Shown: positions 20,629 to 61,680, counted from the first letter of the whole stretch. The stretch: 61,680 nt of DNA, filler included, from Hausera hauseri (GCA_046269625.1; 9 parts of 9 records of this genome joined end to end with filler, not necessarily neighbours in it); one strand, 5' to 3'. The notes: generated from the sequence alone by a model not told the origin. Made by a program: numbers and translations.

Positions 20629-22964
20629 GATTTCAAATAGCATGATGCAATAACGTAATCCAAGTTGGGACTACTTTTTGCGTAGTGTTTTAATTACCAT
20701 GACGTAATAAGACCACGGGAAAAATTTACATTGGAAGGCACAGAGAAACAAAGAAATCGATTCGAAAAGATACACGAAAATACAACAACAACCTATCAGA
20801 AGAAGCAGAAACAACCACCAAGAAAGAAAACACGAAACAAATGTATGATCCCACTAAGAAATAAACATGAAACTTTGGAAGACCAAGAAAAATATGTAAA
20901 AGGCAAAAAGGAAATACGATTTTAGGGTTAAGAAAACAAATGGATACACAAATGAACTATTACACAGACCAACAGCGACAAAACCCACCAAATATTCCTC
21001 CTGAGGCAATTAGACTTATCTGTATACTGTGATTTATGAACTTGAGAAATAGTTAATCAGCGCACAAGATTGGAATGATAAGAAAAGAGACTGACATAAA
21101 GCCAAAATGGAAGGCTATAAGAAACAGTTAACAAAAGAAACAAGCAGCTTTTTTACGAACTCGCCCACTTTCTTTTACAATTTTATTCTTTTCTATTTCA
21201 TTTTCCCTTGACTTTTGTCATGCACTGTTTTTTCCTCCATCTGTTGGGCCAAGTCTCGAGTGCTGTGTGCAGAGTCTGTGCTCTCATCGCTGGGGGACTT
21301 CTTAAAAGTACGGTGGAAAAGTTGAGATGTGAAAAATCCTAACATGAAAACTTGCTGCTATGACAAAAAAACGCCAATATGAAAAGTTACTGACATGAAA
21401 ACACGAGACATGACACAATGTTGAAAAGAAAAATTGTCGACACGCCAAAGATACCAATATGAAAAGTTGAGATATGAAAACTTGAGACGCGGAAAGTCAT
21501 CGACATGACAAACTCACTGACATGACAAAGTCATCGATCTGAAAGTTGACGACCCAAAGGTTGTTGACATGACCGTTGTAGAAATGAAGGTTGTTGACAT
21601 GAAAGACTCCAACATGACAAAGTCGCTGAGATGAAAGTTGTCGACACGAAAGTTGTTGACATGACTGTTGCAGAAATGCAGGTTGTTGACATGGAAGTTG
21701 CCAACATGACAAAATCGCCGACATGGCGAAATCGCCGACACGAAAGTGAAAACTTGTTGATGTGAAAAATCCTAACATGAAAACTGGAGATGTTGAACGT
21801 CGCCGATATGAAAAACGTTCCAACATGTCAAAGTCGCTGATATGAAAGTTTATGCCCCGAAAGTTGTCGAGATGAAAGTTAAAACTTGTCGACGTGAAAA
21901 ATCCTAACATGAAAACAGAAGACATGGAAAGTCGCTGATGTGAAAACGTTCTAACATGTCAAAGTCGGTGACATGAAAGTTGATGACTCGAAAGTTGTCG
22001 ACATGAAAGTTAGCGATATGAATGTTGTCAACATCAAGGTTGTCGACATGTAAACTTGTCGATGTGAAAAATCCTAACATGAAAACTTGAGACTTGGAAA
22101 GTTACCGACATGAACCTTACCAACATGAGAAAGTCGCTGAGATTAAAGTTGTCGACACGAAAGTGAAAACTTGTTGCCGTGAAAAATCCTAACATGAAAA
22201 CTGGACACACGGAACGTCGCTGAGCATGAAAAACGTTAAAACATGTCAAAGTCGCTGACATGAATATTGATGCCCCAAAAGTTGTTGGCATGAAAGTTAA
22301 TGATATGAATGCTGAAATGTCTTGTTTATTTCTCTTTGATCAAAGTCACAATAATCTTTTGGTATCGGTATTGCTAGGTTCTCAGCCAATCTTTCTGCTT
22401 TCGCCATTTCTGTGATGTGAAAGTGGGCGAGTTCGTAAAAAAGCTGCTTGTTTCTTTTGTTAACTGTTTCTTTTAGCCTTCCATTTTGGCTTTATGTCTG
22501 TTTCTTTTTTTTCGGGCCAAGCTTGTGCGCTGGTTAACTATTTCTCAAGTTCATGAATCACAGTATACAGATAAGTCCATTTGCCTCAGGAGGAATATTT
22601 AGTGGGTTTTTTCGGTGTTGGTCAGTTTAATAGTTTATTTGTGTATCCATTTGTTTTCTTAACCCTAAAATCTTATTTTCCTTCTTTGTCTTTTTACATA
22701 TTTTTCTTGGTCTTCCAAAGTTTCATGTTTATTTCTTAGTGGGATCATATATTTCTTTCGTGTTTTCTTTCTTGGTGGTTGTTTCTGCTTCTTCTGTTAG
22801 GTTGTTGCTGTATTTTCGTGTATCTTTCCGAATTGCTATCTTTGTTTCTCTGTGCCTTCCAATGTAAATTTTTCCCGTGGTCTTATTACGTTACGGTAAT
22901 AAAAACACTACGCAAAAAGTAGTCCCGTCTTGGATTACGTTATTGCATCATGCTATTTGAAATC
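20629..22964. mobile_element. Foldback/MITE-like non-coding element with ~545-bp inverted arms (20629-21172 and 22419-22964)
   Basis: GATTTCAAATAGCATGATGC...CTCGCCCACTTTC is reverse-complemented as GAAAGTGGGCGAG...GCATCATGCTATTTGAAATC with scattered substitutions. Confidence 0.9.
21310..22312. repeat. Degenerate minisatellite of ~15-17-bp units (GACATGAAAGTTGTC-like) with higher-order ~130-bp repeats
   Basis: Dozens of ACATGAAA/AAGTTGTCG units; TGTGAAAAATCCTAACATGAAAAC recurs five times. Confidence 0.9.
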
Positions 22965-24277
22965 TTGATTACCTTTTCTCTCTGTCACAGAAGTGATCTC
23001 TTTAATCAGAAGTCTGCCCCGAAAGAAATCTTGTGGTATGGATGGTATTTCACCACGCATCCTGTATCTAGCAGCTCCTGTCGTAGCTGAGTCTCTTACG
23101 TATATTTATAACTTATGTATTACCCAGAAGACATTTCCAGAGCACCTAAAAGCAGGGCTCGTGTTTCCAATCCCAAAAAAGGGCAACCATGACCTTGTAG
23201 AAAATTACAGACCAATTTCGCTTCTCTCTGCAATATCCAAGCCTCTTGAGCGACATATTTACAATCATATGCAGACCTCTATCAATAAATTCAATCTCCT
23301 ACATGAAAATCAATCAGGCTTTCGACGAACTCACTCTTGTCAATCTCTGCTAACTAAACTCACTGAGATATGGCACTCAAACATAAACATTAGTAAAATA
23401 AATGGTGTCCTGTTGATAGACTTGAGTAAAGCATTCGACAGAATAGACCATAACATACTTTTACATAAATTAAAATTGTACAATTTCCATCCTGACATTA
23501 TCTCAATGACACAATCGTTTCTCGAAAATCGAACGCAGTGTGTTCTTCATCAGAACATCTTGTCTAAACCCTACACTGTATCAGTGGGTGTACCACAAGG
23601 CTCGATATTGGGTCCTCTGCTTTTTAATATCTATGTTAACGACCTTCTGTTAACATTCCCACATGACGAATGTCTTATGTTTGCCGACGATACAACTCTG
23701 ACAGTAGCAAGCTCAGACATGCACTCTGTAGAGTCTCTTCTCCAGTACCACTTAGATGCATTACACCGATGGTGCATAGTCAACAAAATGTCCATCAATA
23801 CCGCCAAGACTAAATCATTAATAGTGTCTACAAGGCAAAAGCTTCAAAACTGCCAGTCTACCAAATTGTCAATCACACTGGAAGGGGAACATATTGAGCA
23901 AGTTTCCGAACACTCATTACTAGGCGTCATCATAGACCAGACTTTAAGCTGGAAGCCACATATTTTCGTTACGACAAAGAAAATAGCCCAAAAAGTTTAC
24001 CAGTTATCAAAAATTAAGCACTTCTTATGCATTAACTCTAGATTAGCATTTTATCATGCGCATATACAAAGCCACCTCTCCTATTGTTCCAGCGTTTGGA
24101 GTCGTGGTAATTCCACTGCCATGAAGAGGCTTGAGTCTCTCCAAAAGAGAGCAATGCGTCTGATTTGCTTAGATAGAGATAAGGAGTGCACACAAATGTT
24201 TTCTTTTCTAAATGTTCTCCCAGTCAAAAAGTTCTTCTACTATCAAGATCTTAAATACGTCTATCAAATACTGCATA
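22965..24277 (+). mobile_element. Non-LTR retrotransposon (CR1/L2-group) ORF2 reverse transcriptase, open frame, truncated at both ends
   Basis: GMDGI, NYRPISLL, QSGFR, DLSKAFD, GVPQGSILGPLLF, FADD, LGVIID..LSW. Confidence 0.93.
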
Positions 24278-39100: not shown

Positions 39101-40900
39101 AAAACATATTTCAGGGGTTGACAATTTAGTGGCTGATTTTTTGTCACTCTCCGACGACTCTATCATATCTGCACTTATTTTTAATAGTGAATTACTCCGA
39201 CGAAACCTGCTAGACGAGTTTATTCTCTCCGCCTTCAAATTTTACAAAATCATTCATGGCGTAGCTTTGGACACCTCTGATTCTGGGTTTACTAAAATTA
39301 TTCTATTACCTTTTTTATAAAAACCGCTTTCACCAATATCCATTGTTTGCATCATCTAGGATCCAAAACTACTTTTCGATTTCTTAAACGCCAAGTGATA
39401 TGGCTATCAAAGAAAACAGATGTGCATGACTGGGTCAGTGAGCGTGTGGCATGCCAGAAGTTTAAAGTAGCCAAACACCTCAAGCCGCCACTTTATCATT
39501 TTCCCTGCACATCACGTTTCGACACCGTTTACATCGACATAGTCGGACCTCTTTCACCCGACAACGGCCATCAATTTATTCTTACAATGATGGATCGTGC
39601 TTCTAGGTGGCCAGAAGCCGTTTCACTTCGCTAAACCAACACTGAGACCAGTGCAAATGTATTCATACGCACATGGCTCAGCAGATTCAGCTCACCTAAG
39701 CACACAATCACTGATCAAGCCCTCAATTTCAGTCGAATTTTTTTCTATCATTAGTATATCGACTGGGGATCAAGCGTATTCACACAACACCTTATCATCC
39801 CAAGTAGAATGGCTACTGGAGCGTTTCCATCGTACTATGGGAATCTCCCTTAAAATTCTAGCCGACACAAATCAACACTGAATAAACCTTCTTGCTTACG
39901 TTCTACTGGGATGACGGAACACCCCATCCACAAACACTGGCTGCTTTCTGTCCGGGCACTCTTTGGTACACCAGTGCGTGCATTGTTCGAGTTGGCGTAG
40001 TGCAATGAAACACCCACTGACAAAACAATCCGGGCTGCGCAGGAGCACTTTATTTCGCTTAATAGCGATTCGTTTTGCAGAATTCTAAATCACAACAAAG
40101 CATACATTCTCGACATTCTATATAAGCCAAATTTGTCTGGCTGAAGAATTCAGTATCGCACGGGTTACAACCTCAATACGTTGGGCCTTTTAAGTTAATT
40201 CGTCTGAANNNNNNNNNNTGAACTCACATACTTTTATAACCCTCAAAAATGGATAAGAATGCTCAGTGCACATCATTAACATCAAACCAGCATTATTTAT
40301 CGATGACAACCCTGATTATTCTGTTCCGCTTTGTAGCAATTCCTTTATTGATGTTTTTACCAAGCCTTTTATTCCATCTCACAACAAACCTCTCGTTGAC
40401 GTTTTTCAGCCTTCACTAAACCTTCAATCCTGTCCTGATACTTCTTCTCAAACTTCGTCAAACGCACAATGTTCTGATTCTTCTTCAGTTCACAATGACA
40501 TGTCACTTCATGCCTTTCCTCAATCTTCTTCAGACCTTCAATATTTCAAACCTACTTTACCTTTCTCCACTTCGTGTTCGACTTATTTTCCTTCAAAATC
40601 TTCATTCTCTTCGACACACACAACATCAAACACTAAACTCAACAATCTAATAAATCTTCTGCCGCTACATACCTCTCTGCAACCTAACACAACGCGCACA
40701 AACAAAACACGCAGAGTGACATTCTTCACGTACAGTAGGGGAAAATCATTAGGTATTCAACGTCTTGTCCGCACTAAAACTGAATAAAATAAGCACTACT
40801 TTTTGGAGCCTTTCATTTCCTCTGCTTTGCTTTGGTAGTTTTTAGTTTAGCCACGGGGGGAGGGGTGATGTGGTGCCCGGGCTTTGCGGCGACCTTGTTT
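36168..40900 (+). mobile_element. Near-complete decayed Ty3/Gypsy element (PBS-like TGGCACCCAA, gag, PR, RT, RNase H, IN, PPT, LTR start)
   Basis: gag 36500-37300; TANG..PILG; SPLHVVPKKDG, YIDD, TTDAS, DIVGP; GGGGGAGGGGTGA then TGTGGTGCC at 40869; same family as 24378-26900 (shared VTF..YSR...QRLV..KTE tail). Confidence 0.92.
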
Positions 40901-46147: not shown

Positions 46148-47812
46148 TTGTTGACTGCAATAAAATTACGTAGACATTATATGGCGATATCAAATCAAAG
46201 TTTTCATAAGAATACAGAACAATACTTAAATCTCCTTCAGTGTGAAAGTACACCATCCGACTACCACAAAATGAACATTGAATATTCTAATCCTCAAAAT
46301 GACATTCAAAGTGATCATCTATTAATGCTTCTAGTACTCAAGATAGCCCATATAAAGTCAGAATGATGTTCATTAAAATTGAAGCCGATTTGTCGTTTGT
46401 AGATGGTGCAATGACTGTTCATAATAAAACTGATAATTGTACAATCAAATGCCAAATTCACGTTTCTGAATTTCTCCGAGATTATCATGCACTGTAGACT
46501 TTTGTTAGTGATGGGCCTCTAAAGTCGTTTTGCTTCAAACGTTTGAATTTTTTGAAACATCGATATTATCTGCACTGTTTATTGAACGAATTGCATTAGT
46601 CAGCCGAAAAAAAGACAATTGCTCATAGAGACTTACAATATTCGAAAAGTGGACACATATCCATGCATCATCATCTATGAATAAGAAACACTTGTTGCGT
46701 TTTATAAAAAAATGTCTACGTACTCGTCCAAATGAAAAAGTTTTGGTTGATAAATCTCCCAATCAAATATTGACTCTTAGCGAGGTCTTCAAGTCAATCA
46801 ACATTACCCCATATGAATTAACAATTATTAAACTTGGTGTTCATTGTGATCGTGATACATTCCACAGATTTGATAAATTCAATGCAAAGTACAATCCTGT
46901 TGGACAAAGTGAACTGAGTTAAGTGTTTCTAAAAACCGATAATTATAATAAGGGTCAATTGTTTGCCCAAATAATAAGACGTTATGGAAGATTTAGGAGT
47001 CAAAATACCAGCATGCAGAGCTGCGAATGTCTGTTTATCGCCGAAGTATTAACGAATGGGATCAGTTATCAATTTGGGCCATTGAAAATAATGTATATTC
47101 CAACAATGTCCAATGGATGATTCAATTTCCCCTGATTTATGATATTTTCCAATCTAGTTTTAATTAAAAACTTTCAAGACATTATTAGTAATATATTTTT
47201 ACCACTTTTTGAAGTTACCTGTAATCCCGAAAGTCATCCAGAATTGAATGCCTTTCTTTCTCGCGTTAGTGGTTTTGATCACGTCGACGATGAATCGAAA
47301 ACAGATACACGTGCTTTCGACAAAAATTCTCCAAATCCAGAAAATTGGGATAGTGAAGATAATCCTCCTTATTCTTATTACCTCTATTATACTTTTGCCA
47401 ATATCACGGTTTTGAATGCCTTTAGGAGACAACGTGGAATGAACATATTCACCTCTCGCCCACACTGTGGTGAAGCTGAATCAATACAGCATTTGGGTGC
47501 TGCCTTTTTATTTGGAGAAAGCATTAATGACGCATTATTATCGCGAAAAACTCCATTTTTGCAGTATTTATATTACACTTGCCAAATTAGGATTGCAAAG
47601 TCCACTTTGAGTAATAATTCATTGTTTTTGCATTATCAAAGGAACCCATTTTATGAATGTGTCGAGGACTTAACATGAGCCTAAGCACAGATATCCATTG
47701 CAGTTTCATTTCACAAAACAATCTCTAATGGAGGAATACAGTATTGCTGCCCGGGTGTGGAAACTTACTTCTACAGACGTGCGAACTTGCTAGAAACAGC
47801 ATGCCGATGAGT
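46148..47812 (+). pseudogene. AMPD: AMP deaminase pseudogene, intronless
   Basis: [102 protein letters not shown]; multiple stops and frameshifts. Confidence 0.93.
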
Positions 47813-49505: not shown

Positions 49506-49582
49506 TTTTTTTGTTGATCCATCCATACTCCATACAGACGCGACTACTGCTTTCTGTGTTTCTGTTTTATCAGGTATTCTCG
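49506..49582. repeat. 77-bp terminal direct repeat identical to 61604-61680 (assembler circular overlap)
   Basis: TTTTTTTGTTGATCCATCC...GGTATTCTCG at both contig ends. Confidence 0.97.
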
Positions 49583-52500
49583 ATAAGTAGTCGGCATTAG
49601 CATTTCGCGATCCAGGTTTGTACTGGAAATTCAAAGTATACGGCTGCAACTTTAGAGCCCATCGTAATAATCTACTGTTGGGATTTTCATGCTGCTTCAG
49701 CCATTGGAGTGGTCTATGGTCAGTATAAATCAGAAGAGGTTTGTTTTCACTAATATATGGTGAAAATACTTCTAACGCAAATATTACTGCCAATAACTCT
49801 TTTTCTATCACAGCGTATTTCTTTTGGTGCTTATTGAGTTTTCGTGACGCATAAGCTACTGGATGTTCCTTCCCATCTTCTCCTTTCTGTGATAATACAG
49901 CTCCTACTCCGTAATCACTTGCGTCGGTTGCCAAAATAAAAGGTTTGGTCATATCCGGATAAATTAATATGGGGGCTGTTAGTAGTCTATCTTTTAAGTA
50001 ATCAAAGGTTTTCTGACACTCGTTCGTCCAAATAACTTTATCTAAGTCCTCTCGTAGTAACTCGTACAAAGGCTTTGCGATTTTGCTAAAATCCTTTATG
50101 AATCTTCGATAATAATTGGCTAAGCCTAGAAACTGACGTAGTTCCCTAACCGTACTCGGTTTAGGAAAGTCTCTTATCTTTCCTAAGAGCTTATCCTGAG
50201 GTTTTACACCATTTCTATCTACTTTATGTCCGAGGAAATCTACTTCTGTTTGAGCAAAAGAACATTTCTTAGGATTTATCTTCAAACCCATTATTTTGCA
50301 TCTATCAAAGAGATCCTGTAGATCTTTCATGTGTTGTTGGAAATCTGATGATGCTATTATTACGTCGTCTATATATACCATGGCATGGGGGGCATCTAAT
50401 AACAGAAGTTCTGTTCCTCTCTGGAATGTCGGTGGCCCGTTTTTTAGCCCGAATGGCATTCTATTAAATTCCCACAGTCCTTCGCCGATGGAGAAGGCTG
50501 TCTTGGGTTTGTCTTCTTCTTTAACCTCCACTTGCCAATAGCCCTTTTGCAAATCTATAGTCGTGAATATGGTTGATCCATGCAATTTATCTAGTATTTC
50601 GTCAATTCTTGGTAATGGATATGTGTCCGTTTCTGTTATCTCGTTTAACGCTCTATAGTCTATGCAGAATCTCATAGTCCCATCTTTTTTCTTAACCATC
50701 ACTACCGGAGCTGTCCAAGGTGAACAGCTCGGTCGAATTATCTTATTTTCCCTCATTTCCTTTATTATTTTTCGTGCTTCTTGTTTTTTGTCAAATGCCA
50801 ATCGATATGGTCTCTTTTTAATTGGCTTATCTTGTCCGTCTTTTAACTTAATGGCATGTTGAATAACCTTCATAGTGCCTAGGTCGTAATCCGTTTGAGC
50901 GAATCGGTTATTATTCCTTTCTAGTAACTCTATTAACAACTTCTTCTCTTCTTTACTTAAAATTATACATCCTTGTAATCTTTCATTCCAGTCGATGTTT
51001 GTAGGCTTACCTTTTTTGTTACTATTTGATTTTTGTTTTTCTATCATCATCTTTTCTATTTTGTCCACCTCTGATGTTATCGTGCAGCTCTCTTCTTTTA
51101 TCACTTCTTCCATTGTTGTTATTTCTCCCAACCTAGTATCCTTTCGCAACCGTTTTTCTTTTTTTGTTGTATTACATATAAGTAAGTGAACTTTTCCATC
51201 TCTTACCTTATCCACATGAGGAGCTATTAGTAATTCGTACTTTTCCATAACCTGTGGGGATGGTTCAAAATATATAATATCTGGTAGGACGCGACTTTCT
51301 ATTCTTCCAGGCACCACTATCTCAGATCGAGGTGGAATTGTGGTGTCTTTCACTAGCGAGACCATTCCTTCATTGCGATCATCATTAAACGTCTTAAGTT
51401 GACCGGTCTTTACATCTATATAAACATTTTCCAATTGGTTTAGAATGTCACATCCTATTAAAATTTCGTTGGTTAAGTTATCTGCTATTCTTATCGTATG
51501 TTTCACGATTTGTTTGCCTATTCTAATTTCAGCGTCTAAGACCATTTTTATTTCTTCTTCTGTGCCAAATGCTCCTATGTTTACTAATGTATTGATTGGT
51601 TTCCGTAATTTCCTTTTTAATTCCTTTGGTAATTGGCTTCTTCCCATTATTGTCGTCGTAGATCCCGTGTCTAGTAACGCGGTCATGGGGTGTCCGTTTA
51701 CCTCTATTTCGATTTCCGGTCTTATAGGGTGTTGTTGTGCGTTTTTATCATTTGTTTTATACGTTGTTTCACGTTTATAGGGCTCTGCATTTTCTTCAAA
51801 ATTTCGTTGCATCTGTTGTACTTGGTGCATTGGATATAATCCTGTGTGCACTACATATCGTGGAGCTGAAGGATTCATTGGTGGTAATTCATTATATGGT
51901 CGCTCGTTATATGATTGTCCATGGTATTCGTCTGCTGGGTCTAGACGAGGCAAATCCGTTATTAACTTACGTTTATATTTTGGCCTTCGTGTCCTCAACA
52001 TTAAGTGTTTAATATTATTTATATGTTTCTTTGGTTTTCTTTGACTATCTTCAATATCACTATCATCGGGCATACTATATGTGGACTCCTTTACATCCTT
52101 TCTTTGTATTAACTTCCTTTTCCATCGTGCATCGTGATTCGCTAGAAAGCAACTGGCTACGGCAGGTATTACTGCTATTAAGATTTTCCATGAACATTCT
52201 ACTGCTGCATGTATTCCATAGGCTTTACCTAATGCCGTAAATACCGTTCGAATAGCGCTAATGATAAAGTATATGGCTAGGAAACCGGAGGCTGCTTGAC
52301 CGAAATACAAAAATTTTCCCCACATCTTTTCCATGACGTTTTTCGTTACTTTCCTTAGATAATCTTTTCCCATAAGGTTTTCCCATTGTGGTGACCCTTC
52401 GCCATCCCACATTACTCTCCGGGTTAACTCTGTTATAACTCTCTGTCTTTGCTGGGGAAATAGCAGCATTCGTCGATAATCTTCTAAATTTTGTTGTGTG

Positions 52501-55500
52501 TAAATTCCTCCCTGGGATATTCCTGTCAATGGTTCAAATTTTTGATTCCTTTGTAAGTTGATCAGGCTTAATGTCTCTGGATTAGATACTGGCTCTCTTT
52601 TTGGCATTCTGACCCATTTATTGTTATCAATCTTAAACATGGGTGACATATTAAATGTGCAATTGTATAATGGAGTAGGTTTCACGTTAACATCTAAAAG
52701 TATTCTTGTTACTGGCATAACATATCGTGGTTCCGCATGATAAATTACTGGTAGTTCCATAGTGCATTCATTCGTCGGTCGAATTGATACTTCTACTTTC
52801 TTGCATTCTATTGTTATCAATACCTCGCCCATCACTCTTCCAATAATTCCATCACCAAAGGGCATTACAGGAGCTACCATGTCCGGATTTGTTATTACTA
52901 GTGCCATTTTATTACGCACTATTTCATAGTTTAGCTTACACTCGTTCGTTATTATCTCACGGTATAAACTTCTAATTTCCTTTCTTACATAATTTATCAA
53001 GAAGTCGATCTTGTTATCGAAATATTGTGACAACTTTATATCTTTCTTATCGATTTTAGTTTTTGCACCGGGTATTTCTTTTCTTGATAAGAAGATACCC
53101 TTATAATTAGTTTTTGAGACTTCTTCATTACATTTCGTTGCTACTCCCGTGATCTTAAATCTCATCATGTCCTCCGGATTTTCTGAATATACAATCGTAG
53201 CTACCTCCGTCATCTTTACTTCCTTCGTTCCTTCTTTAAACGTTGCTGTCTCCTTTTCTGCCGTTTTTCCCACTGTCTTATTAAATTTTCCTTCTTTCAA
53301 CAGTGTTAGTTGACATTTGCTTACCGTGGTTTCCCACGTCATTTTCGATTCTCCGGTGTCGCATTCTCCATTGTCATATTCGCATTCGCTCATCGTTGTC
53401 ATTAGTTTTGTTTGTGAATCAAATAACGCTTCATATTCTTTCAACTGAATTTGGTAATCTTCGATAGCTACCGTTCTAGGTGCAATAGTACCTCCTACGT
53501 CGTAATCTACTCCCTTACACGTGCCTTCCCTAGTCTTATCTATTCTTCCTGCCCTGAAAATTCTGGTGTATTTTATTCGGTTTCTAACTGCCGGTATGTG
53601 GGCATTTTGTATCGTAATAATGCCAATCTTGAAAGCATCCTGACACTCCGCTCTTGATACTATAATCGGTTCAAAGGGTGTCGTAGGCTCAATTATAGCC
53701 GAGTTTCCGGAATAGTAAGCGCAGTTGAACAGGAAGAACGACCTTTTAACATAACATTCCCTAACCTTTGCTTTTATAAACTCCGATTCTTGATATACCC
53801 AATAAGTGAGACCACCTGTCGTTGTTAACCGTTCTGGATCAGCTTCTGGACACTTTTCCAAATCTACTAGTGAATATTTTTGACCTTCGCTGGGTTTAGA
53901 GCAATCATAAGCTACTATACCCACTGCTTTAGGCATAAGTAGCGATGTTATTAGGAGTATCTGTATAATTTCCATCATTGACATACCTGGTTTATTAATA
54001 CCTGGTTGCATCGGAGTTGGTGTCTCTATCAGTCTTTCTCGTTCTCCGGGCCTTATTGCATTAGTCATGAGGCTGGTTAACCATCCGCCTCTGCATTGAG
54101 CCCAATTTCCCAGTGTATCTTTCAATATTTTCACAACCGTCTGTATGTTCCGTTCTATCTCTTCTAAATTTTGAGTTTGATGGTTAATCACTATTATCTT
54201 GTATATGAGATATGATATAGCCGTTCTAGCTTTTTCTCGTGTAATCCCTGTGGCGAACATTTTCTCCAAAATATCCAACTCGTGTAATTCGTTTATTCGT
54301 TCCTCATCTAAATTCTCATAAAATTGCCTACTTATTCGAAGCATATTATTACGCAGGGTTGTAAATAATTCATCTGGGATTATTGTCTGCATGTCAAATG
54401 AAGCAAAGGACGTATGTAATTTGGCTAACAGCGTTCTTAATAATGGGTCTATGTCCACTGATTCAGACATGCCATCTGTTCCTGCTAATAGTAAACGTCT
54501 TACTATTTCCTCGTTCCTATCTTTCCTATTACGTATGTCACTTATTTTCGTTCCTTTTGGCCTACCTCTTCTTTTACCTTCTGTTTGGACTGTAACATAT
54601 CGTGCCTCTCCTATAGGAACTTCTTCAACTCTGTGTGGTTCCATTTCCCTCAAGATATCCTCCACTGTTGCTTGTGCTCGAGCTTCAGGATGTATTTCGG
54701 TTATAATTACCGGATTGTAATTCTCACTTCTACATCCTATTCTCAATAATTTATCATAATTATATAACGTCCTTCCGTAATAATTTAATCCATAGGGACT
54801 TCCTTGATAAAAAGGTTCAAGTTCCTCAATCTTCTCTCTTAAAGATTGTATATCATCTATTTCGTTCATCCTAATAACCCTCATATCTTGATTACCTTCT
54901 CTTACTGTTATCCGTATGACTTCATTTCTTCCTTTCTCGTCCTCAGCGGCTTTAGCTAATATCGTTCTTGCTATTTCTCTAATGGGATTGGTATCTTGAG
55001 CCAATAATACCAGTTTAGGTAAAATTTCCTTCATCTTTTCTATCGTTATTTTATTGTTAAGTATTTTTAGAATAGTGGTAGTCGTTCCATCCACATCGAT
55101 TATATTATCTGGATCGACAGTCATTACTGCCTGAATAATATCTTCTTCTTCGTCTAGGTCTACTCCTGGATTCCTTATTACTTCATCTAATACGGTATCG
55201 TCAAACATTGGCGTAACTTGAGTTTCTTCTGGACTAAATGAAGGTGAGGGTGTGCTAAGGCTTTTCTTTCTTCCTCTTTTCTTTTCTTTTACTACCTCTT
55301 CCCTCTCCGTTGATGTTTCTCTTGATTCGGTTTCTACATCAATTATTTTCCTATTGCTTTTCTTTCTTCCTCTCTGAGATACCTGTTTCTGTGGTTGATC
55401 TCCTATCATGTAAATACTGCTTTCCTTCAACCTTTGTTGTTGCCTTTTATATTCCTTTAATTCTATTTCTAATCGCTTTTTCATACGTGATGGTAACGTA

Positions 55501-56531
55501 TCATCGATGTAATTAGTACTCTCTTTCTTTTTATCTTTTTTCTTCACTTCAGATTCGCTAACACTATCCTCCGTCTCATATTCTTTATCGGAAGATTCAT
55601 CTGACGTTGTTAACGTATAGTCTTTCTTAGATGGTTTCTTCTTATTACTTGATTTTGAGGGATCTCCTTTACGTAATTTGCACGACTTGGCTATATGCCC
55701 ATATTTATTACAATTGAAACATTTTAATCTTCCTTCGGAATCAATATTGGGTAAGGATCGTCCATCTTTCTTGAACTTCTTTTTGTATCCTGTCTTCTCT
55801 CCATCATTCTTTAAATTAAACCTTACTTTCTTTTCTCCGTCCGACTCGGCCTCTGTAGCTGATGTCTGTGAGGGGCTTCGATTCCTATTATAACGTTGAT
55901 ACTTCTGTGTACTTTTTTGCTTATCGTCATTATTGTCGTAGTTTCTGGATTTGTTCCACTTATATAATTCAGCGTCTCGTTCGGCTTTACGTGCCTTTCT
56001 TATAGCCTCCTGGAAGGTAGACGGATCAGCCTGTAATATTATACTTCTTAATCTGCCTTCCAGTCCGTATTGGAATTGAGCCAACAGCGCATTACTTCTT
56101 ATTACTGCATCGGGGTACGCCCTTGCGGCTAGCTTTTCCAGTGCACAGACAAAATCTTGGACTGTCTCATCTTTTCGTTGCCTCCGTCTTATAAATTCTT
56201 CTATTCTCCCCTTTCCAGAGGGATCAACTAGAAATTTCTGAGGTAACTTATCTTTGACAGTCTTCCAATCTTTCTTTTCTTCTTCTGGCATCTGAAAGAA
56301 AATTGTTAATGCAGTTCCTTTTAGGTGAAGAGGTAACCTCTCCATCCTTTGTTGGTCATTCCATCCGAAGCTTTTTGAATATACCTCATATTCCATTATG
56401 AAGTCTTGCACATCTTCTTTTCCTGAAAATTTCTTCATCGGGAGGGTGAAATCAGCCTTTGACTGAATCACCTGTTCTACATTATGGTTAGCCATTGTTT
56501 CTTCTTCACTTAGGTCTCTCAAATATTCCAA
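49506..56531 (-). CDS. Polyprotein part 1: Gag (CA, CCHC 55680-55721), UBL (54684-54923), chuvirus-type glycoprotein (52141-53984), protease (DTG 51663-51671), dUTPase-like spacer, RT (YIDD 50364-50375), RNase H (~49580-49945)
   Basis: FSGKEDV..F..GW; CFNCNKYGHIAKSC; LLDTGS; SPWTAPVVMVKKKDG, CIDYRALN, DLQKGYWQ, MPFGLKN, YIDD; ATDAS, EKELLA, TDHRPL; no stop or frameshift. Confidence 0.96.
52141..53984 (-). other. Embedded envelope domain: internal signal peptide, Cys-rich Jingchuvirales/Monjiviricetes-type class III fusion glycoprotein, TM anchor
   Basis: MSMMEIIQILLITSLLMPKAVG/IVAYDC; EC.VK; GTCKG; NECKL...NPD.VA....G..GRVMGEV...C..VEVSIRPT.EC..ELPV.Y.....PVTRIL; GGIYT; TM FGQAASGFLAIYFII. 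Confidence 0.85.
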
Positions 56532-56635
56532 TCCGAAGGGTTCGTCTTTGTCTGGGTGATAAATCGTTCCTTTCCTAGTAGTAATGGTGGTACTTTCTTA
56601 ATCTAAAGGTCCTAAGATAAATCGAGAGATTAATT

Positions 56636-56654
56636 ATCCCGGGTCACGGCACCA
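56636..56654 (-). promoter_or_regulatory. Primer-binding site complementary to tRNA-His
   Basis: TGGTGCCGTGACCCGGGAT, 3 nt after ...TTAACA LTR end; close match to the tRNA-His PBS TGGTGCCGTGACTCGGAT. Confidence 0.9.
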
Positions 56655-56657
56655 GTT

Positions 56658-58875
56658 TGTTAAATACCCACTAATTTCTTTTATAAAGAACTTTTATAGG
56701 TACACTTAATTAGGGGGATTAACAAATATGTTCGTTTCGTTTGACCAGCAGAGGGTATAGATCGTGATTTCAGACGGTCTTACCTAACTATCAGTAGGTA
56801 ATGTGTTTTGTTTAAGTCAGTATTTCACGTTACCCACTAAGGATTATTATCCTATATATTATTTAATATTAAACGGGTGGTCGTCAGGTAGGGTTAGACC
56901 TGGTCGACCGAGAGCCAAGTTATTTGACGATTACTTATTTACTTTGGTTTAGTTAAATGAAACCAACAACGTTTATACAAAAATATAATTGATAAAATAA
57001 GAAAAATGATATAACGAAAAACAATGAAAGATTAGAATTCACCATAAGCAATACACTTACTAGAAGACATGTCGTATCGTACGATCAGAAATAAAAATTG
57101 TTCAAGTTTGTGGTGAAAATCCATTGTATTTATACTTAATCAAAAATCACATATTTGTCCATATTAGGACTAATAATGTATGTGCACAAAAATTAATATC
57201 CGAATTAAGACATTTTAAATACATAACATGAATATAACATGAATTAGAATGTCACATATTGATCAAGACATGACAGGATATTGTCATGAACATTTATTTG
57301 AACAGTATTTATTTGAATCAAAGGATGACCAGTTGAACAATGTTCATAAATGTTTATTTGAATCCAGGTAACAATGTTATTTGAATGTTTATTTGAATCA
57401 AATGTGATCAAAGGATGGGGGGCACAAGAAAATTGTCCCGAATTTTATAAGAGGAAGACAACTTGTTTCATTGATCGAGCGGGAGTGGTACGTGGATAAA
57501 TTTGTCAGAAGTCCTGCTTTTGTATCTGATTGCTTCTGGCTCATAGACCTCATCGTCAATCACCATTGTTTCGGCGGTTTGGAACTTTCTTTTTCTTCCA
57601 GCTGTGGTTGGTGTTATTAGCACCGTATCGGAGGCCGAGGCTTGAGTAATCATCTCATCAGTCCACTTGAGTTGCTTGTAGATAGCCTGGTAGCATTGTA
57701 CCAAGGCAGTACTTCGGAGTGGCATTCCACGGGTATCGTAGAATTTCTTAGCCAACTCCTTATAGGTATTTGTCGTCAATTGATACTTACGGATAGCCTC
57801 TTCGTGATAAAGAATATCGCGAACTCCGGCTATCCGTCTGATTGGGCATTTACAATGGTTGATTATCATCTCGAGAACGTCGGCTCCTATTATGACTTTA
57901 TCTGTTAGGACTTCTGTGATCTTCCGATAGAACTCATTCACGTCCATTTGATTATTGATGTGGGACTCTGCCAAACCCGTTAGGTGGGTGTCAAAATTAT
58001 TGATTCTTTGACGCGGAGAGATGACACTATAAAAAAGGGTTTGACCGTCCAATGTTATAACTGAGCACTCAATAGGTTGCATCTGGTTCCACTGGTCATA
58101 TGCTAGGTTGATCGCGGCTATGACCAAGTCCTGGTTTGTGACGTGCTGGAGTCTTCTATATGGGATTGTCTTGTATCGTAAATAATCGGGTTCGGGGAGA
58201 TAAAAACATTTTCCTTCGGGAATGATAGGTTGAAGAACCTCCTGTTTGATGATCTCAAAGGCTATCATAATCCTGTTGGTCAAAGAACGTACTTTTACTG
58301 TGTTGTTCTTTATGAATTGGTACTCGAAGGCAAGGGCGTGGTCTTGATCCATATTTATTAGGTCTCCTTGGATCGAGGTCTTACGATTGGTTGATTTAAT
58401 ATGAAACTTGCCAGCGATGTTATAAATGTTCATTGAATGATATCTTTCGGGTAATATGATCAGATCTTGAATGTAGAAAGACGTTGCTTTTGTTAACTGT
58501 ATCAGGGCCAATGATCTGTTGCTCATGCTATACCCTTTCAGGTTATTTGGAATTTGAGGTGTTTGAGGATAGTTGAGACTATAGGTATAGTCATTATGGA
58601 TTACATAGTATTGACTGTTTGGGTTAGCATTAATGAGGTGGGTTTTGGCGTTGCTGAACCAATGTTTTGATCGGGTTATCGATTGAACTTGACGATCCGT
58701 TGAAATTGATACTGAAAGAAGAAATGTCAATGGCAAATCATTGTAGGTATCTACATACAACACAACGGTTATCAAACACACAGTGGTAATCGTTGTAGTT
58801 TTAATTTTTACTTGATTTCTATAGGTAACCTGATGAAGTGTGGTTATCTTTGTCAAAAGGGTTGCATAATTAGCA
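56658..58875 (-). repeat. Candidate single (collapsed) LTR, ~2.2 kb, TG...CA, containing the pseudo-exonuclease ORF
   Basis: 3' end ...TATTTAACA fixed by the PBS; 5' end TGCTAATTA (7/9 inverted match) follows purine tract AAGAGTAGGGA (58877-58887); the 5' boundary is inferred. Confidence 0.55.
57125..57420 (-). promoter_or_regulatory. U3-like promoter/enhancer
   Basis: TATAAA (57129-57134), CArG box CCATATTAGG (57159-57168), repeated (TG)TTTATTTGAA forkhead-like units, two ATCAAAGG TCF/LEF-like sites (57317, 57407). Confidence 0.55.
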
Positions 58876-58892
58876 ATCCCTACTCTTAACCG
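57468..58892 (-). CDS. Accessory ORF with inactive DEDDh exonuclease-like domain; probably expressed by readthrough
   Basis: ECSVITLDGQTLFYSVISPRQRINNFDTHLTGL..L...EFYRKITEVLTDKVIIG matches the REX4/ISG20 fold pattern; Exo I DxE replaced by NLA; frame open up to the TGA at 58893-58895. Confidence 0.75.
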   Translation of the reverse strand, partial: RLRVGIANYATLLTKITTLHQVTYRNQVKIKTTTITTVCLITVVLYVDTYNDLPLTFLLSVSISTDRQVQSITRSKHWFSNAKTHLINANPNSQYYVIHNDYTYSLNYPQTPQIPNNLKGYSMSNRSLALIQLTKATSFYIQDLIILPERYHSMNIYNIAGKFHIKSTNRKTSIQGDLINMDQDHALAFEYQFIKNNTVKVRSLTNRIMIAFEIIKQEVLQPIIPEGKCFYLPEPDYLRYKTIPYRRLQHVTNQDLVIAAINLAYDQWNQMQPIECSVITLDGQTLFYSVISPRQRINNFDTHLTGLAESHINNQMDVNEFYRKITEVLTDKVIIGADVLEMIINHCKCPIRRIAGVRDILYHEEAIRKYQLTTNTYKELAKKFYDTRGMPLRSTALVQCYQAIYKQLKWTDEMITQASASDTVLITPTTAGRKRKFQTAETMVIDDEVYEPEAIRYKSRTSDKFIHVPLPLDQ

Positions 58893-59450
58893 TCAGCTGG
58901 GGTTACCCGTAGCTGACGGATTTGTTATATCTCGTAAGTTGATTCGTATCCAATTTTGTTTCCTCCTACATTGTTTTCGTATCACTTTAAACAATATTAT
59001 TATTATTATCACACTTATTATAGGGACTATTAAACTTGTTATGATTATTTCTAAGCGAGAATATGTATACGTAGCTCTAGGTGGTTTTTTGGTGGTACTG
59101 TCTTTAATCGTGCTTACTCTATTTGATAATTTTACTTTATTACTTTTCGTGATTGCAGATAATACTTTCGTAGAAATTATTTTATTGTTGTCATCTAGCA
59201 ATTGCAGAATAACTGTATATCTCATATCAGACTCCAAGGCTGCACATGGCGCTATAAGGTCGTCAGGGGTTATCATTCCTTTAGCCACTATAGTATCTTT
59301 TTTCTTGCAGCTGAATTTTATTTTTGTAAAATCAAACTCTGGTTTTACAGAGATGATTAGTGCTGTTGGAGCTGCTATAACGGTTACATTGTCCCATATA
59401 GAACGTTTCTGCCGATAATACGAAACATAAGGTTTAACTATAATAGTCAT
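58893..59450 (-). CDS. Type I membrane protein module: furin site, FN3-like domain, Thr-rich stalk, TM, basic tail
   Basis: RQKR/S; LESDMRYTVILQL; STTKKP; IIITSLIVPIISVIIIIILF then KVIRKQCRRK. Confidence 0.75.
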   Translation of the reverse strand: MTIIVKPYVSYYRQKRSIWDNVTVIAAPTALIISVKPEFDFTKIKFSCKKKDTIVAKGMITPDDLIAPCAALESDMRYTVILQLLDDNNKIISTKVLSAITKSNKVKLSNRVSTIKDSTTKKPPRATYTYSRLEIIITSLIVPIISVIIIIILFKVIRKQCRRKQNWIRINLRDITNPSATGNPS

Positions 59451-61603
59451 ATTTTTTTATCAGGTGAGGATTGCACAAATGGTGTCGTGACTTTATCTTG
59501 TATATCGTCGTATTCTTTTTGGTTTTTATATCGTATGAACATCGTCGGGCCTTTCTTTTGTAATCTATTTTCAACTTTTCCATATTCTTTTCGTGACAGA
59601 GTATATTTTACTTCGTATATTTTCCCTCTAATTACATTGCAACAGACTCGTTGATGCTCGTCCGTTAATTCGCATCTCCCTATTCTTTGTTTCCCTCCAA
59701 TTTCTTTTATGGATATGGTTATCCATCGGATGTATTCTAACTCTATCATACTTCTTACCTCTAGACAACTTCTTCCGCTCTTAAATCCCATTGGTTTCAT
59801 TTTTAATTGTGCTAGAATTATTTCGTCACGCCATGACTCGTTCATTTCTTTTCTGTTGGGGATTCGTATATATTTGTAAAATTTGGTATATAGACTATAA
59901 TAATGATCCTCTTTCTTCTTTAGGAGTGTTAAATATATTCCATGCATTCCAGAAGTGTCTATGGGACATTGTGTTTCATTTGTTTCTGAATGAAGAATAC
60001 AATTATCGTGTCTTCCACCGGGACTTCTTTCATAACCGGAGATTGGGTTTATTTGCATCTTTATAATATATTCGCCGAATATCTGTCTGGTAGTGTACCA
60101 AATCATACATTTGCGACCTGTCATGGAGTATGTCATTCGATATTTCAAACTTTTCAACCATAAATCTTCATTTATGGCCGTGGCGTGCCGTATTTTGGCT
60201 TGTTCGACTTCTTGAGGGGTCATCTGTCCAAATACATAAGGAAGTAAGATGATCAATATCAATAAATTCTTTAGTAGCCAATGTAAGTTATAAGTCGAGT
60301 TTTTTATCTGCGCCTTTTCTTTGATACTTAATACTATTTCTTTTTCGCCCTTCCTTAGCTCACTGTCTTGCGGTGCTAATTTACATCTATTAACATGAAC
60401 CTTTATAGACGTGTTATTTTTCTTAATGCAAATGTTTGGTAAATCTACTTTTTCTACCTCATACGGCCCTTTGTATGGTCTATCCAATTTAGATGTTTTT
60501 CCCTTTTTAATCGTAGGTGAGTGTAACATTACTCGATCGCCTATTTTAATCTTGGGCTGTTCTGTCTTTTTGTCATAATATTTCTTATATTTCAACTTAT
60601 ACTCCTTTTGATTATCACCAATTATTCTATATGCCAGTTGGAGACGTTCTTGCATTAGCTGTTTATAGTCTTCTACCTCCATTAGATGAGAAATTGGTTT
60701 TACGTTAAAATCCAGATCAATTGGTATTCGTGCGTCTCGTAAGAACATTAAATAGAAAGGTGTTTCTTTAGTAGCCTCGTGGACCGATGTTCGGTTCACA
60801 AAAACGCATGCATTAATGTATTCATCCCAATCATCTTGTCGAGTATTGACCACTGTTTGTAATTTCCCCTTTAAATCTCCAATATATCTTTCGACCATTC
60901 CATTATTTTCTGGATGTCCTGGCGTGGATCGTAACTTTAGTATTTTTAAAATATTGTATATGGCTTGCATTACAGTTCCCGTTAAATTTGATGCTTGATC
61001 AGTCAAGAGAATCCTTGGGGCTCCGTAATTAAATATTATATTTTCCACGAATTTCTCGGCAATGGTGTCTGCTTTCATGTCAGCCATAGGTATGGCAACG
61101 ACCCACCGGGTAAAATAGTCGATAAAAACCAATATATACTTATTTCCATTCCGCGTTAATGGTAATGGTCCTGTTACATCCATCGCAGTAAACTCGAAAG
61201 GAGCTGGAGGGTTATCCCATACTTTTAGTGGAGCTTTAAATTTTGATCCCGTATTTTTCCTGGTAGCGCACAGTTTACAGCTTACACACCACTCCTGCAC
61301 ATCTTTCGTTATCGTAGGCCAGAAATATTTTCGTTTTAATTTGTTTAGCGTCTTATTGGCCGATTGGTGTCCTCCAAGTAATCCATCATGATATTGTGTT
61401 AATAGAACTGCTCTATTTTTCTGTGGAATCACTAGTGCAGGTCCGTTTTGACTAAGGAAATACAAAAATCCTTCTTTTTCCTCATATGCTTCGCTAAATC
61501 GAGCCAGATGTCGGGCTAAGTCTCGATCTGCTGGTATAGTTTTATCCTTTATAAATTTTCTGATAGCCCTTATCTCGATATCTTCGCTTTGATTGGCCTT
61601 AAT
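59447..61603 (-). CDS. Polyprotein part 2 (continuous with 49506-56531): integrase (HHCC, DDE, GPY/F) plus internal signal peptide and Cys-containing ectodomain
   Basis: HDGLLGGH..CVSCKLC; MDVTGP, LTDQAS, NGMVER; YKGPY; LHWLLKNLLILIILLPYVFG/Q at ~60228-60287. Confidence 0.93.
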   Translation of the reverse strand: MKANQSEDIEIRAIRKFIKDKTIPADRDLARHLARFSEAYEEKEGFLYFLSQNGPALVIPQKNRAVLLTQYHDGLLGGHQSANKTLNKLKRKYFWPTITKDVQEWCVSCKLCATRKNTGSKFKAPLKVWDNPPAPFEFTAMDVTGPLPLTRNGNKYILVFIDYFTRWVVAIPMADMKADTIAEKFVENIIFNYGAPRILLTDQASNLTGTVMQAIYNILKILKLRSTPGHPENNGMVERYIGDLKGKLQTVVNTRQDDWDEYINACVFVNRTSVHEATKETPFYLMFLRDARIPIDLDFNVKPISHLMEVEDYKQLMQERLQLAYRIIGDNQKEYKLKYKKYYDKKTEQPKIKIGDRVMLHSPTIKKGKTSKLDRPYKGPYEVEKVDLPNICIKKNNTSIKVHVNRCKLAPQDSELRKGEKEIVLSIKEKAQIKNSTYNLHWLLKNLLILIILLPYVFGQMTPQEVEQAKIRHATAINEDLWLKSLKYRMTYSMTGRKCMIWYTTRQIFGEYIIKMQINPISGYERSPGGRHDNCILHSETNETQCPIDTSGMHGIYLTLLKKKEDHYYSLYTKFYKYIRIPNRKEMNESWRDEIILAQLKMKPMGFKSGRSCLEVRSMIELEYIRWITISIKEIGGKQRIGRCELTDEHQRVCCNVIRGKIYEVKYTLSRKEYGKVENRLQKKGPTMFIRYKNQKEYDDIQDKVTTPFVQSSPDKKI

Positions 61604-61680
61604 TTTTTTTGTTGATCCATCCATACTCCATACAGACGCGACTACTGCTTTCTGTGTTTCTGTTTTATCAGGTATTCTCG

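What the first reader, a model, noticed from the sequence alone, without database searches (positions are those of the whole stretch)
49506..61680. Intact Gypsy-type retroelement with a chuvirus-type fusogen embedded in-frame between Gag and protease, in a single ~3,060-aa virus-like polyprotein
Seen: joining the 77-bp terminal overlap gives one stop-free frame of about 3,060 codons: CA-CCHC-UBL-helical region-signal peptide-glycoprotein-TM-PR-RT-RH-IN-signal peptide-ectodomain. Established: env genes of retroviruses, errantiviruses and env-bearing BEL/Pao elements (including those with chuvirus- or gB-like glycoproteins) normally lie 3' of pol as separate ORFs. Inference: this element uses a capsid-envelope-replicase polyprotein cut by host signal peptidase plus its own protease, like flaviviruses. 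Gag, Env and Pol would be made 1:1:1, with Pol initially tethered to the Env cytoplasmic tail. It is a candidate new lineage of infectious invertebrate retrovirus.
Basis: partly seen in the sequence, partly recalled or inferred. Interest (0 to 1): 0.95.

Follow-up and report, generated by a model that had tools for sequence, protein, structure and literature searches.

The report
Compact Burro-like envelope-bearing retroelement
This jumping gene, likely from a flatworm, encodes its capsid, a Bcl-2-like domain, a herpes-gB-like fusion protein and its copying enzymes in one reading frame that is likely cut up by host and own proteases, a layout already reported for planarian Burro elements.

Summary
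The 12,175-bp contig has a 77-bp terminal repeat, and its two ORF pieces are in register: 3,048 codons from the first ATG. Order: capsid-CCHC-UBL-Bcl-2-like-signal peptide-class III glycoprotein-TM-PR-dUTPase-like-RT-RH-IN-second signal peptide-ectodomain. The glycoprotein matches Pfam Monjiviricetes_fusion (1e-90) and folds like herpes gB and chuvirus G. At least 15 database polyproteins carry G ahead of the protease in one chain, so it is no misassembly. Not seen in the papers I read: a post-integrase signal peptide-ectodomain-TM module (5 of 7 relatives; split over two frames in this contig, so 'intact' needs a caveat), a 3' ISG20-like ORF4 lacking catalytic residues, and in-phase splice sites that would give Gag without Env-Pol. 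Cleavage, topology, infectivity, LTR limits and host are inferred. New member of a known, unstudied kind.

The parts
56636..56654 (-). Primer-binding site complementary to the 3' end of tRNA-His(GUG); a ..CA LTR-like end lies 3 nt upstream at 56658
   Evidence: Sequence; its first 12 nt equal the His_GUG PBS entry of PMC13524379 supplementary file 1
55944..56441 (-). Gag capsid (first ATG at 56495)
   Evidence: Pfam Ty3_capsid E 8e-7
55677..55724 (-). Single CCHC zinc knuckle
   Evidence: Pfam zf-CCHC E 1.4e-4
54687..55073 (-). Short helical domain followed by a ubiquitin/SUMO-like domain (indirect assignment)
   Evidence: Matches P0007 413-533 at iE 3e-14; P0007 ubiquitin E 0.03; aligned segment of P0003 ubiquitin 4e-5 and PF11976 1.5e-3; model weak here
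54060..54443 (-). Bcl-2-like domain with degenerate BH1 and BH2 (GGW kept)
   Evidence: Pfam Bcl-2 E 0.03; BOK E 0.09; 6-sequence profile hits Bcl-xL E 4e-5; Bcl-2 family chains Z 6.0-6.8 among unrelated helical rows
53981..53989 (-). Only strong 5' splice-donor consensus on the sense strand, just before the Env signal peptide (function untested)
   Evidence: at least one such site in piece A occurs in 18.5% of 1,000 codon shuffles, position not scored
53913..53984 (-). Internal signal peptide of the glycoprotein; would remain as C-terminal membrane anchor of the Bcl-2-like domain (inferred)
   Evidence: Hydropathy; hydrophobic stretch before AYDC in 14 of 16 sequences
52311..53912 (-). Class III (gB/chuvirus G-type) glycoprotein ectodomain, 14 Cys, 3 N-glycosylation sequons
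   Evidence: PF24664 E 1.3e-90; AlphaFold blocks mostly 85-98 pLDDT; herpes gB E 5e-15; chu-related G E 6e-42; gB Z 9.8 with rmsd 11.3 over 422 residues, gB domain IV Z 9.4 with rmsd 3.5 over 156
52230..52304 (-). Transmembrane helix of G
52140..52196 (-). Second hydrophobic helix, likely amphipathic on the cytosolic face
   Evidence: Charged residue inside in 14 of 16, hydropathy >=1.5 in 5 of 16; the window's own is the most hydrophobic, 1.92; also present in stand-alone G proteins
51429..51722 (-). Aspartic protease (LDTGS)
   Evidence: Pfam RVP E 1e-10
51126..51362 (-). dUTPase-like domain between PR and RT
   Evidence: PDB dUTPase E 0.002; 10 invariant columns in 9 sequences
49638..50696 (-). 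Reverse transcriptase (YIDD) and RNase H
   Evidence: best solved relative is Ty3 RT, E 7e-93, ahead of the other retroelement RTs listed, 2e-59 or weaker
49506..49582 (.). 77-bp terminal repeat, copy 1 (assembly overlap in the RH-IN linker, not an LTR)
   Evidence: bridged by an X1 contig
61604..61680 (.). 77-bp terminal repeat, copy 2
60719..61429 (-). Integrase (HHCC, D-D-E), followed by a GPY motif
59447..60286 (-). Second signal peptide (60218-60286) and Cys-containing ectodomain, to the stop of piece B
   Evidence: two hydrophobic segments after IN in 5 of 7 relatives; Atlas search uninformative
58893..59456 (-). ORF3: FN3-like domain (lead only), Thr/Ser/Pro stalk, TM (58983-59048), basic tail; different frame from piece B
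   Evidence: Atlas best hits FNDC9/FNDC5 score 0.89; L-x-P/S-D-T-x-Y-like motif in 5 of 6 relatives and ORF3; no Pfam fn3 hit; frame offset
57468..58892 (-). ORF4: 474 codons, no early ATG, same frame as ORF3 behind a UGA-CGG stop; C-terminal half ISG20/REX4-like, catalytic residues apparently lost; acceptor-like site at 58712
   Evidence: Homolog P0156 61% over 86%; paralogue at window 11060-13156; ISG20L2 E 8e-5; 6 of 8 listed variants at third codon positions
56658..58887 (-). Candidate single LTR (58875-56658) behind a polypurine-like run (58887-58877); limits unproven
   Evidence: Read from the sequence; the purine scan did not list this run; no second LTR copy in the contig

Best explanation
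A compact Ty3/gypsy retroelement, likely from a flatworm, encodes capsid, a Bcl-2-like domain, a class III fusion glycoprotein and PR-RT-RH-IN in one open frame, and this polyprotein is likely threaded through the ER membrane and cut by host signal peptidase and its own protease to make enveloped particles. Steps. SHOWN: one frame, domain order, class III fold, catalytic motifs, tRNA-His PBS, conservation of the layout in relatives. INFERRED: (1) Gag-UBL-Bcl-2 is made in the cytosol; the hydrophobic stretch at residues 838-861 acts as an internal signal sequence; signal peptidase frees G and leaves the stretch as a tail anchor on the Bcl-2-like domain, which would also tether Gag to the membrane that carries G. 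(2) G stops at one TM; the next helix lies along the cytosolic face, so PR-RT-RH-IN emerge in the cytosol on G's tail until PR cuts them off. (3) A second signal peptide after IN sends an FN3-like type I membrane protein into the lumen, a candidate attachment or accessory envelope protein. (4) Bcl-2-like, UBL and the inactive-looking ISG20-like ORF4 would act on host death and defence pathways. (5) Reverse transcription is primed by tRNA-His; the circular contig is a collapsed-LTR assembly cycle or a one-LTR circle.
For: frame, domains, motifs; class III fold; 24, 26: 5 of 5 hits have G then protease, 4 of 5 also RT-RH-IN; 46: 10 of 19 chosen long hits (of 150 listed) have G with PR or Pol in one chain; 63: a cluster of 20 members, the 15 listed all 4,026-4,029 aa; 80: 19 polyprotein-type or close G sequences form one clade (SH-like 1.0) apart from 45 stand-alone G; 59: variants in X1 fall on third codon positions in 13 of 18 places in G and 21 of 29 in piece A (40 of 83 places were shown); 99: signal-peptide-like stretch in 14 of 16, charged residue in the post-TM helix in 14 of 16; 74: Burro domain order; 87, 91: by eye the G domain shares motifs with six S. 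mediterranea GAG-ENV-POL elements.
Against: No experiment or RNA read shows cleavage, topology, particles or infection. No dedicated topology predictor was available; the window's own post-TM helix is the most hydrophobic of 16 (1.92, one Lys, low hydrophobic moment 0.22) and could be read as a second TM. The post-IN protein is split over two frames in this contig. Bcl-2 and UBL matches are weak singly (E 0.03) and the BH1 motif is degenerate. No Burro sequence could be fetched, so there is no RT tree with Burro (one search found nothing among 4,079-5,000-aa proteins). The clade is partly made by choosing hits on similarity. Host is inferred only.
Confidence: 0.75

Rival explanations
1. Same element, but not 1:1:1: most Gag comes from a spliced RNA that leaves at the donor just before the Env signal peptide and lands at the acceptor-like site at 58712, giving a soluble Gag-UBL-Bcl-2-ORF4 protein; only unspliced RNA yields Env and Pol.
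For: The only strong donor consensus on the 12-kb sense strand lies at the Gag/Env border, and one of 11 acceptor-like sites lies at ORF4 codon 61, where similarity to P0156 begins (about codon 65); both are phase 1 (worked out by hand from the coordinates); ORF4 has no ATG before codon 124 yet is conserved upstream of it.
Against: Found after the fact; such a donor occurs somewhere in piece A in 18.5% of shuffles; phase match has a 1 in 3 chance; one X1 joint (58673-58758, 21-nt side) skips the acceptor; ORF4 could instead be reached by readthrough of UGA-CGG (type II context, PMC3159437), though no 3' stem-loop was found (z -0.39); no RNA run was listed.
Confidence: 0.22
2. A purely intracellular retrotransposon: G is kept for cell-to-cell spread or as a membrane scaffold inside the animal, with no free infectious particle.
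For: A large diverged family (15,282 X1 contigs laid, 11,166 at 90-95% identity) and a decayed G copy on another contig of the window point to long residence in a genome; PMC13524379 argues for long vertical descent; no relative in viral contigs by a close-relative scan.
Against: G keeps 14 cysteines, a confident class III model and third-position-biased variation, so it is under selection as a protein; that fits fusion, though not necessarily extracellular spread.
Confidence: 0.3
3. An exogenous or episomal retrovirus-like virus caught as a one-LTR DNA circle, not an integrated repeat.
For: The contig closes on itself inside pol; an X1 contig (56632-57699, depth 10.8) runs through the LTR end and PBS without a fork, and depth there is not double that of internal pieces (11.7-14.3); relatives sit on element-sized contigs of 11.8-18.4 kb.
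Against: A multi-copy repeat in a thinly sequenced host gives the same graph cycle once flanks are pruned; contig depth is no copy number; LTR limits are unproven; X1 may be the source sample.
Confidence: 0.15
4. Misassembly joining a chuvirus-like glycoprotein or endogenous viral element to a gypsy element.
For: The listing shows no single piece spanning the Gag-G or G-PR borders in full (only 8 pieces listed).
Against: The frame is open across both borders; 15 database proteins have G and PR in one chain; P0007 matches continuously from the helical domain into G; the layout is published.
Confidence: 0.02

Closest known systems
Burro / GYPSM1 giant Ty3/gypsy elements of planarians (as described in PMC6431247, section read in full)
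   Same: One ORF with Gag-CCHC, Ubi2/SUMO-like, BCL2, mononegavirus-like env, PR, dUTPase-like, RT, RH, IN in this order; relative P0003 also has ankyrin repeats.
   Different: Unit about 12.1 kb and 3,048 codons against up to 25 kb internal and 4,873-5,140 aa; one CCHC, not two or three; no MATH, BIR, ankyrin or Smc hit in the window; the section does not mention a post-IN membrane protein or an exonuclease-like ORF; no direct sequence comparison with Burro was possible.
GAG-ENV-POL HSV/gB-type 'ancient errantiviruses' of Nematoda, Bryozoa and Platyhelminthes (PMC13524379; nematode case credited there to Sacco et al. 2022, not read)
   Same: Ty3/gypsy Pol, gB-type Env related to chuvirus G, env before pol, tRNA PBS; G shares motifs by eye with Smed_errantivirus_1-6.
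   Different: The paper's main text has no occurrence of 'polyprotein', 'Bcl' or 'fibronectin', so it does not describe the single-frame processing, Bcl-2 domain or post-IN module; the six S. mediterranea rows list no PBS, here it is tRNA-His.
Atlas virus (Belpaoviridae, hookworm; PMC9094657 passages)
   Same: Gag, Pol and Env in a single 2,828-aa polyprotein without stops.
   Different: BEL/Pao Pol, order Gag-Pol-Env, class II phlebovirus-like Gc.
Chuvirus / Monjiviricetes glycoprotein G and the BEL/Pao elements carrying it (PMC7642597, search listing only)
   Same: Same Pfam family and fold, same TM plus juxtamembrane helix.
   Different: There G is a stand-alone protein of about 650 aa at 21-28% identity; here it is internal to a polyprotein.
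Bdelloid LTR retrotransposons with DEDDy exonuclease ORF3 (PMC5408684 passages)
   Same: A DEDD-family ORF 3' of pol and dUTPase between PR and RT.
   Different: Those are RNase D-like with intact catalytic residues; ORF4 is ISG20/REX4-like and seems to lack them.

Membership tests
Ty3/gypsy (Metaviridae) | Pol order PR-RT-RH-IN and Ty3-type RT | tested here: met
   Ty3 RT best PDB hit E 7e-93
Ty3/gypsy (Metaviridae) | tRNA primer-binding site next to an LTR end | tested here: met
   tRNA-His PBS at 56654-56636 behind a CA end
Ty3/gypsy (Metaviridae) | Two LTRs with target-site duplication | tested here: inconclusive
   Circular contig holds no repeat other than the 77-bp overlap; no flanks
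GAG-ENV-POL gB-type errantiviruses (PMC13524379) | HSV/gB-type (class III) envelope with signal peptide and TM | tested here: met
GAG-ENV-POL gB-type errantiviruses (PMC13524379) | Order gag-env-pol with uninterrupted domains | tested here: met
GAG-ENV-POL gB-type errantiviruses (PMC13524379) | Integrated in an invertebrate genome | tested here: inconclusive
   No genome held; neighbouring contigs look animal (AMP deaminase closer to human than plant) and hold a decayed G copy
GAG-ENV-POL gB-type errantiviruses (PMC13524379) | Placement in the published POL clades | not testable with these tools
   Published sequences could only be compared by eye
Burro / GYPSM1 | Env in frame between BCL2-like domain and protease | tested here: met
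Burro / GYPSM1 | Ubi2/SUMO-like domain upstream of BCL2 | tested here: met
   Indirect, through P0007 and P0003
Burro / GYPSM1 | dUTPase-like domain between PR and RT | tested here: met
   E 0.002
Burro / GYPSM1 | Giant size (internal region to 25 kb, ORF1 about 4,900-5,100 aa) | tested here: not met
   12.1-kb unit, 3,048 codons; hence 'Burro-like', not filed as Burro
Burro / GYPSM1 | MATH, BIR, ankyrin, Smc accessory domains | tested here: not met
   No Pfam hit at E<=1 in the window's ORFs; ankyrins present in relative P0003
Burro / GYPSM1 | Monophyly with Burro RT; planarian host | not testable with these tools
   No Burro sequence retrieved; run organism is coded
Belpaoviridae with chuvirus G or Atlas-type Env | BEL/Pao-type Gag and RT | tested here: not met
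   Ty3_capsid, RT_RNaseH and H2C2 integrase families, no DUF1759; YIDD
Bcl-2 family | BH1/BH2 helical bundle | tested here: met
   Profile E 4e-5 to Bcl-xL; structural Z 6-6.8 is not above helical background
Bcl-2 family | BH3 binding or apoptosis control | not testable with these tools
   BH1 motif is degenerate
ISG20/REX4 DEDDh exonucleases (ORF4) | Fold-level homology | tested here: inconclusive
   Profile E 8e-5 to ISG20L2 over about 125 positions; model too poor (pLDDT 34), fold search empty
ISG20/REX4 DEDDh exonucleases (ORF4) | Catalytic D-E-D-D-h residues | tested here: not met
   Aligned Exo II and Exo III positions lack them; the Exo I position was judged by eye from the recalled motif

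The most novel reading that the evidence does not exclude
A widespread, uncharacterised lineage of infectious flatworm retroviruses that builds a two-glycoprotein envelope from one flavivirus-like polyprotein: the Env signal peptide doubles as the tail anchor of a viral Bcl-2, a class III fusogen carries Pol on its tail, integrase is fused to an FN3-like attachment protein, and an Env-Pol-skipping splice supplies excess Gag fused to a pseudo-exonuclease; this contig is its circular replicative DNA.
Probability: 0.15. Interest if true: 0.8.

Novelty: new member of a known kind. Interest (0 to 1): 0.45.

Why it matters
Burro-type elements were proposed in 2019 to be proviruses but called too large and complex to test (PMC6431247). 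This element keeps the same core in about 3,050 codons, and at least 15 related polyproteins show the layout is a stable lineage, not a planarian oddity. That makes open questions testable domain by domain: how a retroelement expresses Env from inside Gag-Pol, how it sets Gag:Pol ratios without a frameshift, whether a captured Bcl-2 protects the producing cell, and what the conserved membrane protein after integrase does. The headline layout itself is not new.

Tried and rejected
No whole genome is held. The search for related loci found no relative in metagenome contigs or viral contigs; single-protein queries reach close relatives only. Search among 4,079-5,000-aa proteins gave nothing, so Burro itself was not retrieved. 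No RNA holder listed: no evidence either way on expression or splicing. A second read-laying on the LTR region gave no result, so LTR limits stay open. ORF4 structure prediction from 2 sequences failed (pLDDT 34) and its fold search had no match at E<=0.001; the Atlas query for ORF4 did not complete. Atlas hits for the ectodomain of piece B (bacterial DUF1961/DUF6250, 0.93, recognition 1890) were rejected as weak. PDB search with ORF3 matched only TM segments. No stem-loop after the ORF3 stop. My by-eye idea of ISG20-like stretches in P0016 was not supported by the ORF4 profile. A recalled likeness of the helical domain before the UBL to the TFIIS N-terminal domain was not supported or excluded (barely tests that part). 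The first multi-sequence alignment misaligned the Bcl-2 region of P0003 and P0009, so a focused one was used. Earlier scan findings: none by words or by sequence. Sacco et al. 2022 and Grohme et al. 2018 could not be read. No complex prediction was run. 'Not in print' for the post-IN module rests only (3 papers listed, none on topic by title and abstract start); figures of these papers and Repbase entries could not be seen.

Full report
1. Observation. The window is a chain of contigs separated by N-spacers; the finding is the last one, 49506-61680, 12,175 bp, 37% GC, with an exact 77-bp terminal repeat. The element reads on the minus strand. Piece A runs from ATG 56495 to the contig end without a stop (2,330 codons); piece B runs from the other end to a stop at 59447 (743 codons). 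The last 25 codons of A are the first 25 of B, so the frames are in register, 3,048 codons from the ATG. The overlap lies between RNase H and integrase, so it is an assembly overlap, not an LTR; a 407-bp contig of run X1 crosses it with 180 nt on the shorter side (X1 holds 0.58 of the sampled words and may be the source sample).

2. Domains. Pfam gives Ty3 capsid, one CCHC, Monjiviricetes_fusion at residues 840-1488 (E 1.3e-90), protease, RT, RNase H and integrase; catalytic motifs are present and the closest solved RT is Ty3's. An AlphaFold model of residues 461-1482 from 90 sequences is confident over the ectodomain and poor over residues 560-706. It matches herpes gB (Foldseek E 5e-15, low global TM-score), chu-related virus G (E 6e-42) and again gB by the second aligner (Z 9.8, rmsd 11.3 over 422 residues; domain IV Z 9.4, rmsd 3.5 over 156). 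The UBL is assigned through relatives. A dUTPase-like fold sits between PR and RT (E 0.002). A tRNA-His PBS lies at 56654-56636 behind a CA end.

3. Not a misassembly. All 5 hits carry G followed by protease, 4 of 5 also RT-RH-IN. Of 19 long or offset hits chosen from the 150 listed, 10 have G with PR or Pol in one chain and 4 have a Gag marker upstream of G. One cluster has 20 members; the 15 listed are 4,026-4,029 aa on contigs of 14.6-18.4 kb. In a FastTree of 64 G ectodomains the window and 18 polyprotein-type or close sequences form one clade (SH-like 1.0) apart from 45 stand-alone G (P0007 and P0015 fell to the length filter, P0019 and P0020 are G-only fragments, and the set was chosen by similarity). 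Of the 40 variant places shown out of 83 in X1, third codon positions make up 21 of 29 in piece A, 13 of 18 in G and 6 of 8 in ORF4.

4. Topology and processing (inferred). A hydrophobic stretch directly precedes the AYDC-type start of G in 14 of 16 sequences. After the TM comes a second hydrophobic helix that is also present in stand-alone G proteins. It holds a charged residue in 14 of 16 sequences and reaches hydropathy 1.5 in only 5 of 16, which favours a helix lying on the cytosolic face; against this, the window's own copy is the most hydrophobic. A single pass puts PR-RT-RH-IN in the cytosol, which is also what the second signal peptide after IN needs. Signal-peptidase cleavage would leave the first signal peptide on the end of the Bcl-2-like domain, about 30 residues after BH2, where cellular Bcl-2 proteins have their tail anchor (general knowledge). 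None of this is shown by experiment.

5. The 3' region. In 5 of 7 relatives with RT and IN, integrase is followed in frame by exactly two hydrophobic segments 236-408 residues apart, a type I membrane protein; P0021 has three and P0022 ends at the integrase core. In the window the first segment is in piece B and the second in ORF3, in another frame. The one X1 contig listed across this place is not identical to the window there, so a copy-specific break, an assembly error and a recoding site all remain open. ORF3 resembles FN3-TM proteins (Atlas 0.89, a lead only; motif; no Pfam fn3 hit). ORF4 follows in ORF3's frame behind UGA-CGG, a type II readthrough context (PMC3159437 passages), without a downstream stem-loop. 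ORF4 is a real gene: 61% identical over 86% to P0156, with a paralogue elsewhere in the window, conserved upstream of its first ATG. Its C-terminal half matches ISG20L2 (E 8e-5) and seems to lack the catalytic residues. The only strong splice donor on the sense strand lies at the Gag/Env border and an acceptor-like site lies at ORF4 codon 61, both phase 1 (phases by hand); this would give Gag without Env-Pol and is kept as a rival.

6. State of the DNA. The contig holds no second LTR. An X1 contig runs through the LTR end and PBS without a fork and without doubled depth. This fits a one-LTR circle, but also a multi-copy repeat with pruned flanks; 15,282 X1 contigs were laid, mostly at 90-95% identity, and a decayed G copy lies on another window contig, which favours a genome-resident family. 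A candidate LTR of 2.2 kb holding ORF4 is read from the sequence only.

7. Prior art. [quoted passage not shown] PMC13524379 (abstract, passages, section 14, first part of section 5, rows of supplementary files 1, 2, 4 and 5) reports GAG-ENV-POL gB-type elements in nematodes, bryozoans and flatworms; by eye the window's G shares a run of motifs with the six S. mediterranea entries. PMC9094657 (passages) shows a single-ORF Gag-Pol-Env polyprotein in a belpaovirus. PMC5408684 (passages) shows DEDDy exonuclease ORFs behind pol in rotifer elements. Sacco 2022 and Grohme 2018 were not readable; figures were not visible. The element fails Burro's size and accessory-domain features, so it is Burro-like, and it meets the tested features of the GAG-ENV-POL gB-type class. 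A flatworm host is my inference (about 60%).

8. Verdict. Real, well supported and biologically odd, but the headline architecture has been in print since 2019. What may be unreported is the lineage-wide post-integrase membrane protein, the Bcl-2 anchor/signal-peptide overlap, ORF4 and the possible Env-Pol-skipping splice. Interest 0.45; new member of a known kind.

Noticed in passing
window 11060-13156 (-): 698-codon ORF on another contig is a paralogue of ORF4 (23% over 261 aa, pairwise E 1e-10), with its own early ATG and no retroelement protein detected on that contig.
   Followed up: partly
window 6297-6918 (-): Decayed fragment of a related signal peptide-G gene, broken over frames: a second member of the family in the same assembly.
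   Followed up: partly
window 1219-2391 (-): DUF1759 (BEL/Pao Gag) ORF, E 8e-12, with an unexplained 392-codon ORF upstream (2664-3842).
   Followed up: no
window 22969-24277, 24378-26205, 37529-39813: Three other RT-bearing remnants; the last two match gypsy RT-RH-IN with stops or frame breaks. The first sits beyond a 280-bp inverted repeat pair (20629-20908 / 22685-22964) enclosing a 15-bp-period repeat.
   Followed up: no
window 47136-47678 (+): AMP deaminase fragment, closer to human AMPD2 (E 3e-65) than to the other entry listed (2e-54): an animal-like host sequence.
   Followed up: partly
protein P0012: A G-PR-RT-RH-IN polyprotein of this family is annotated in NCBI as a hypothetical protein of a Flavobacteriaceae MAG: probable eukaryotic contamination of a bin.
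   Followed up: no
proteins P0002, P0004, P0005, P0006, P0008, P0010, P0011, P0017: Relatives carry two to four aspartic-protease-like stretches, in P0004-P0006 one of them after integrase; the window has one.
   Followed up: no
protein P0111: A chuvirus-type G fused behind three Ig domains, possibly a domesticated fusogen; P0152 has a chromodomain before G.
   Followed up: no
window 56225-56637: Several X1 joints start next to the PBS and skip 139-238 nt (short sides): family members seem to share the PBS but differ in leader length.
   Followed up: no
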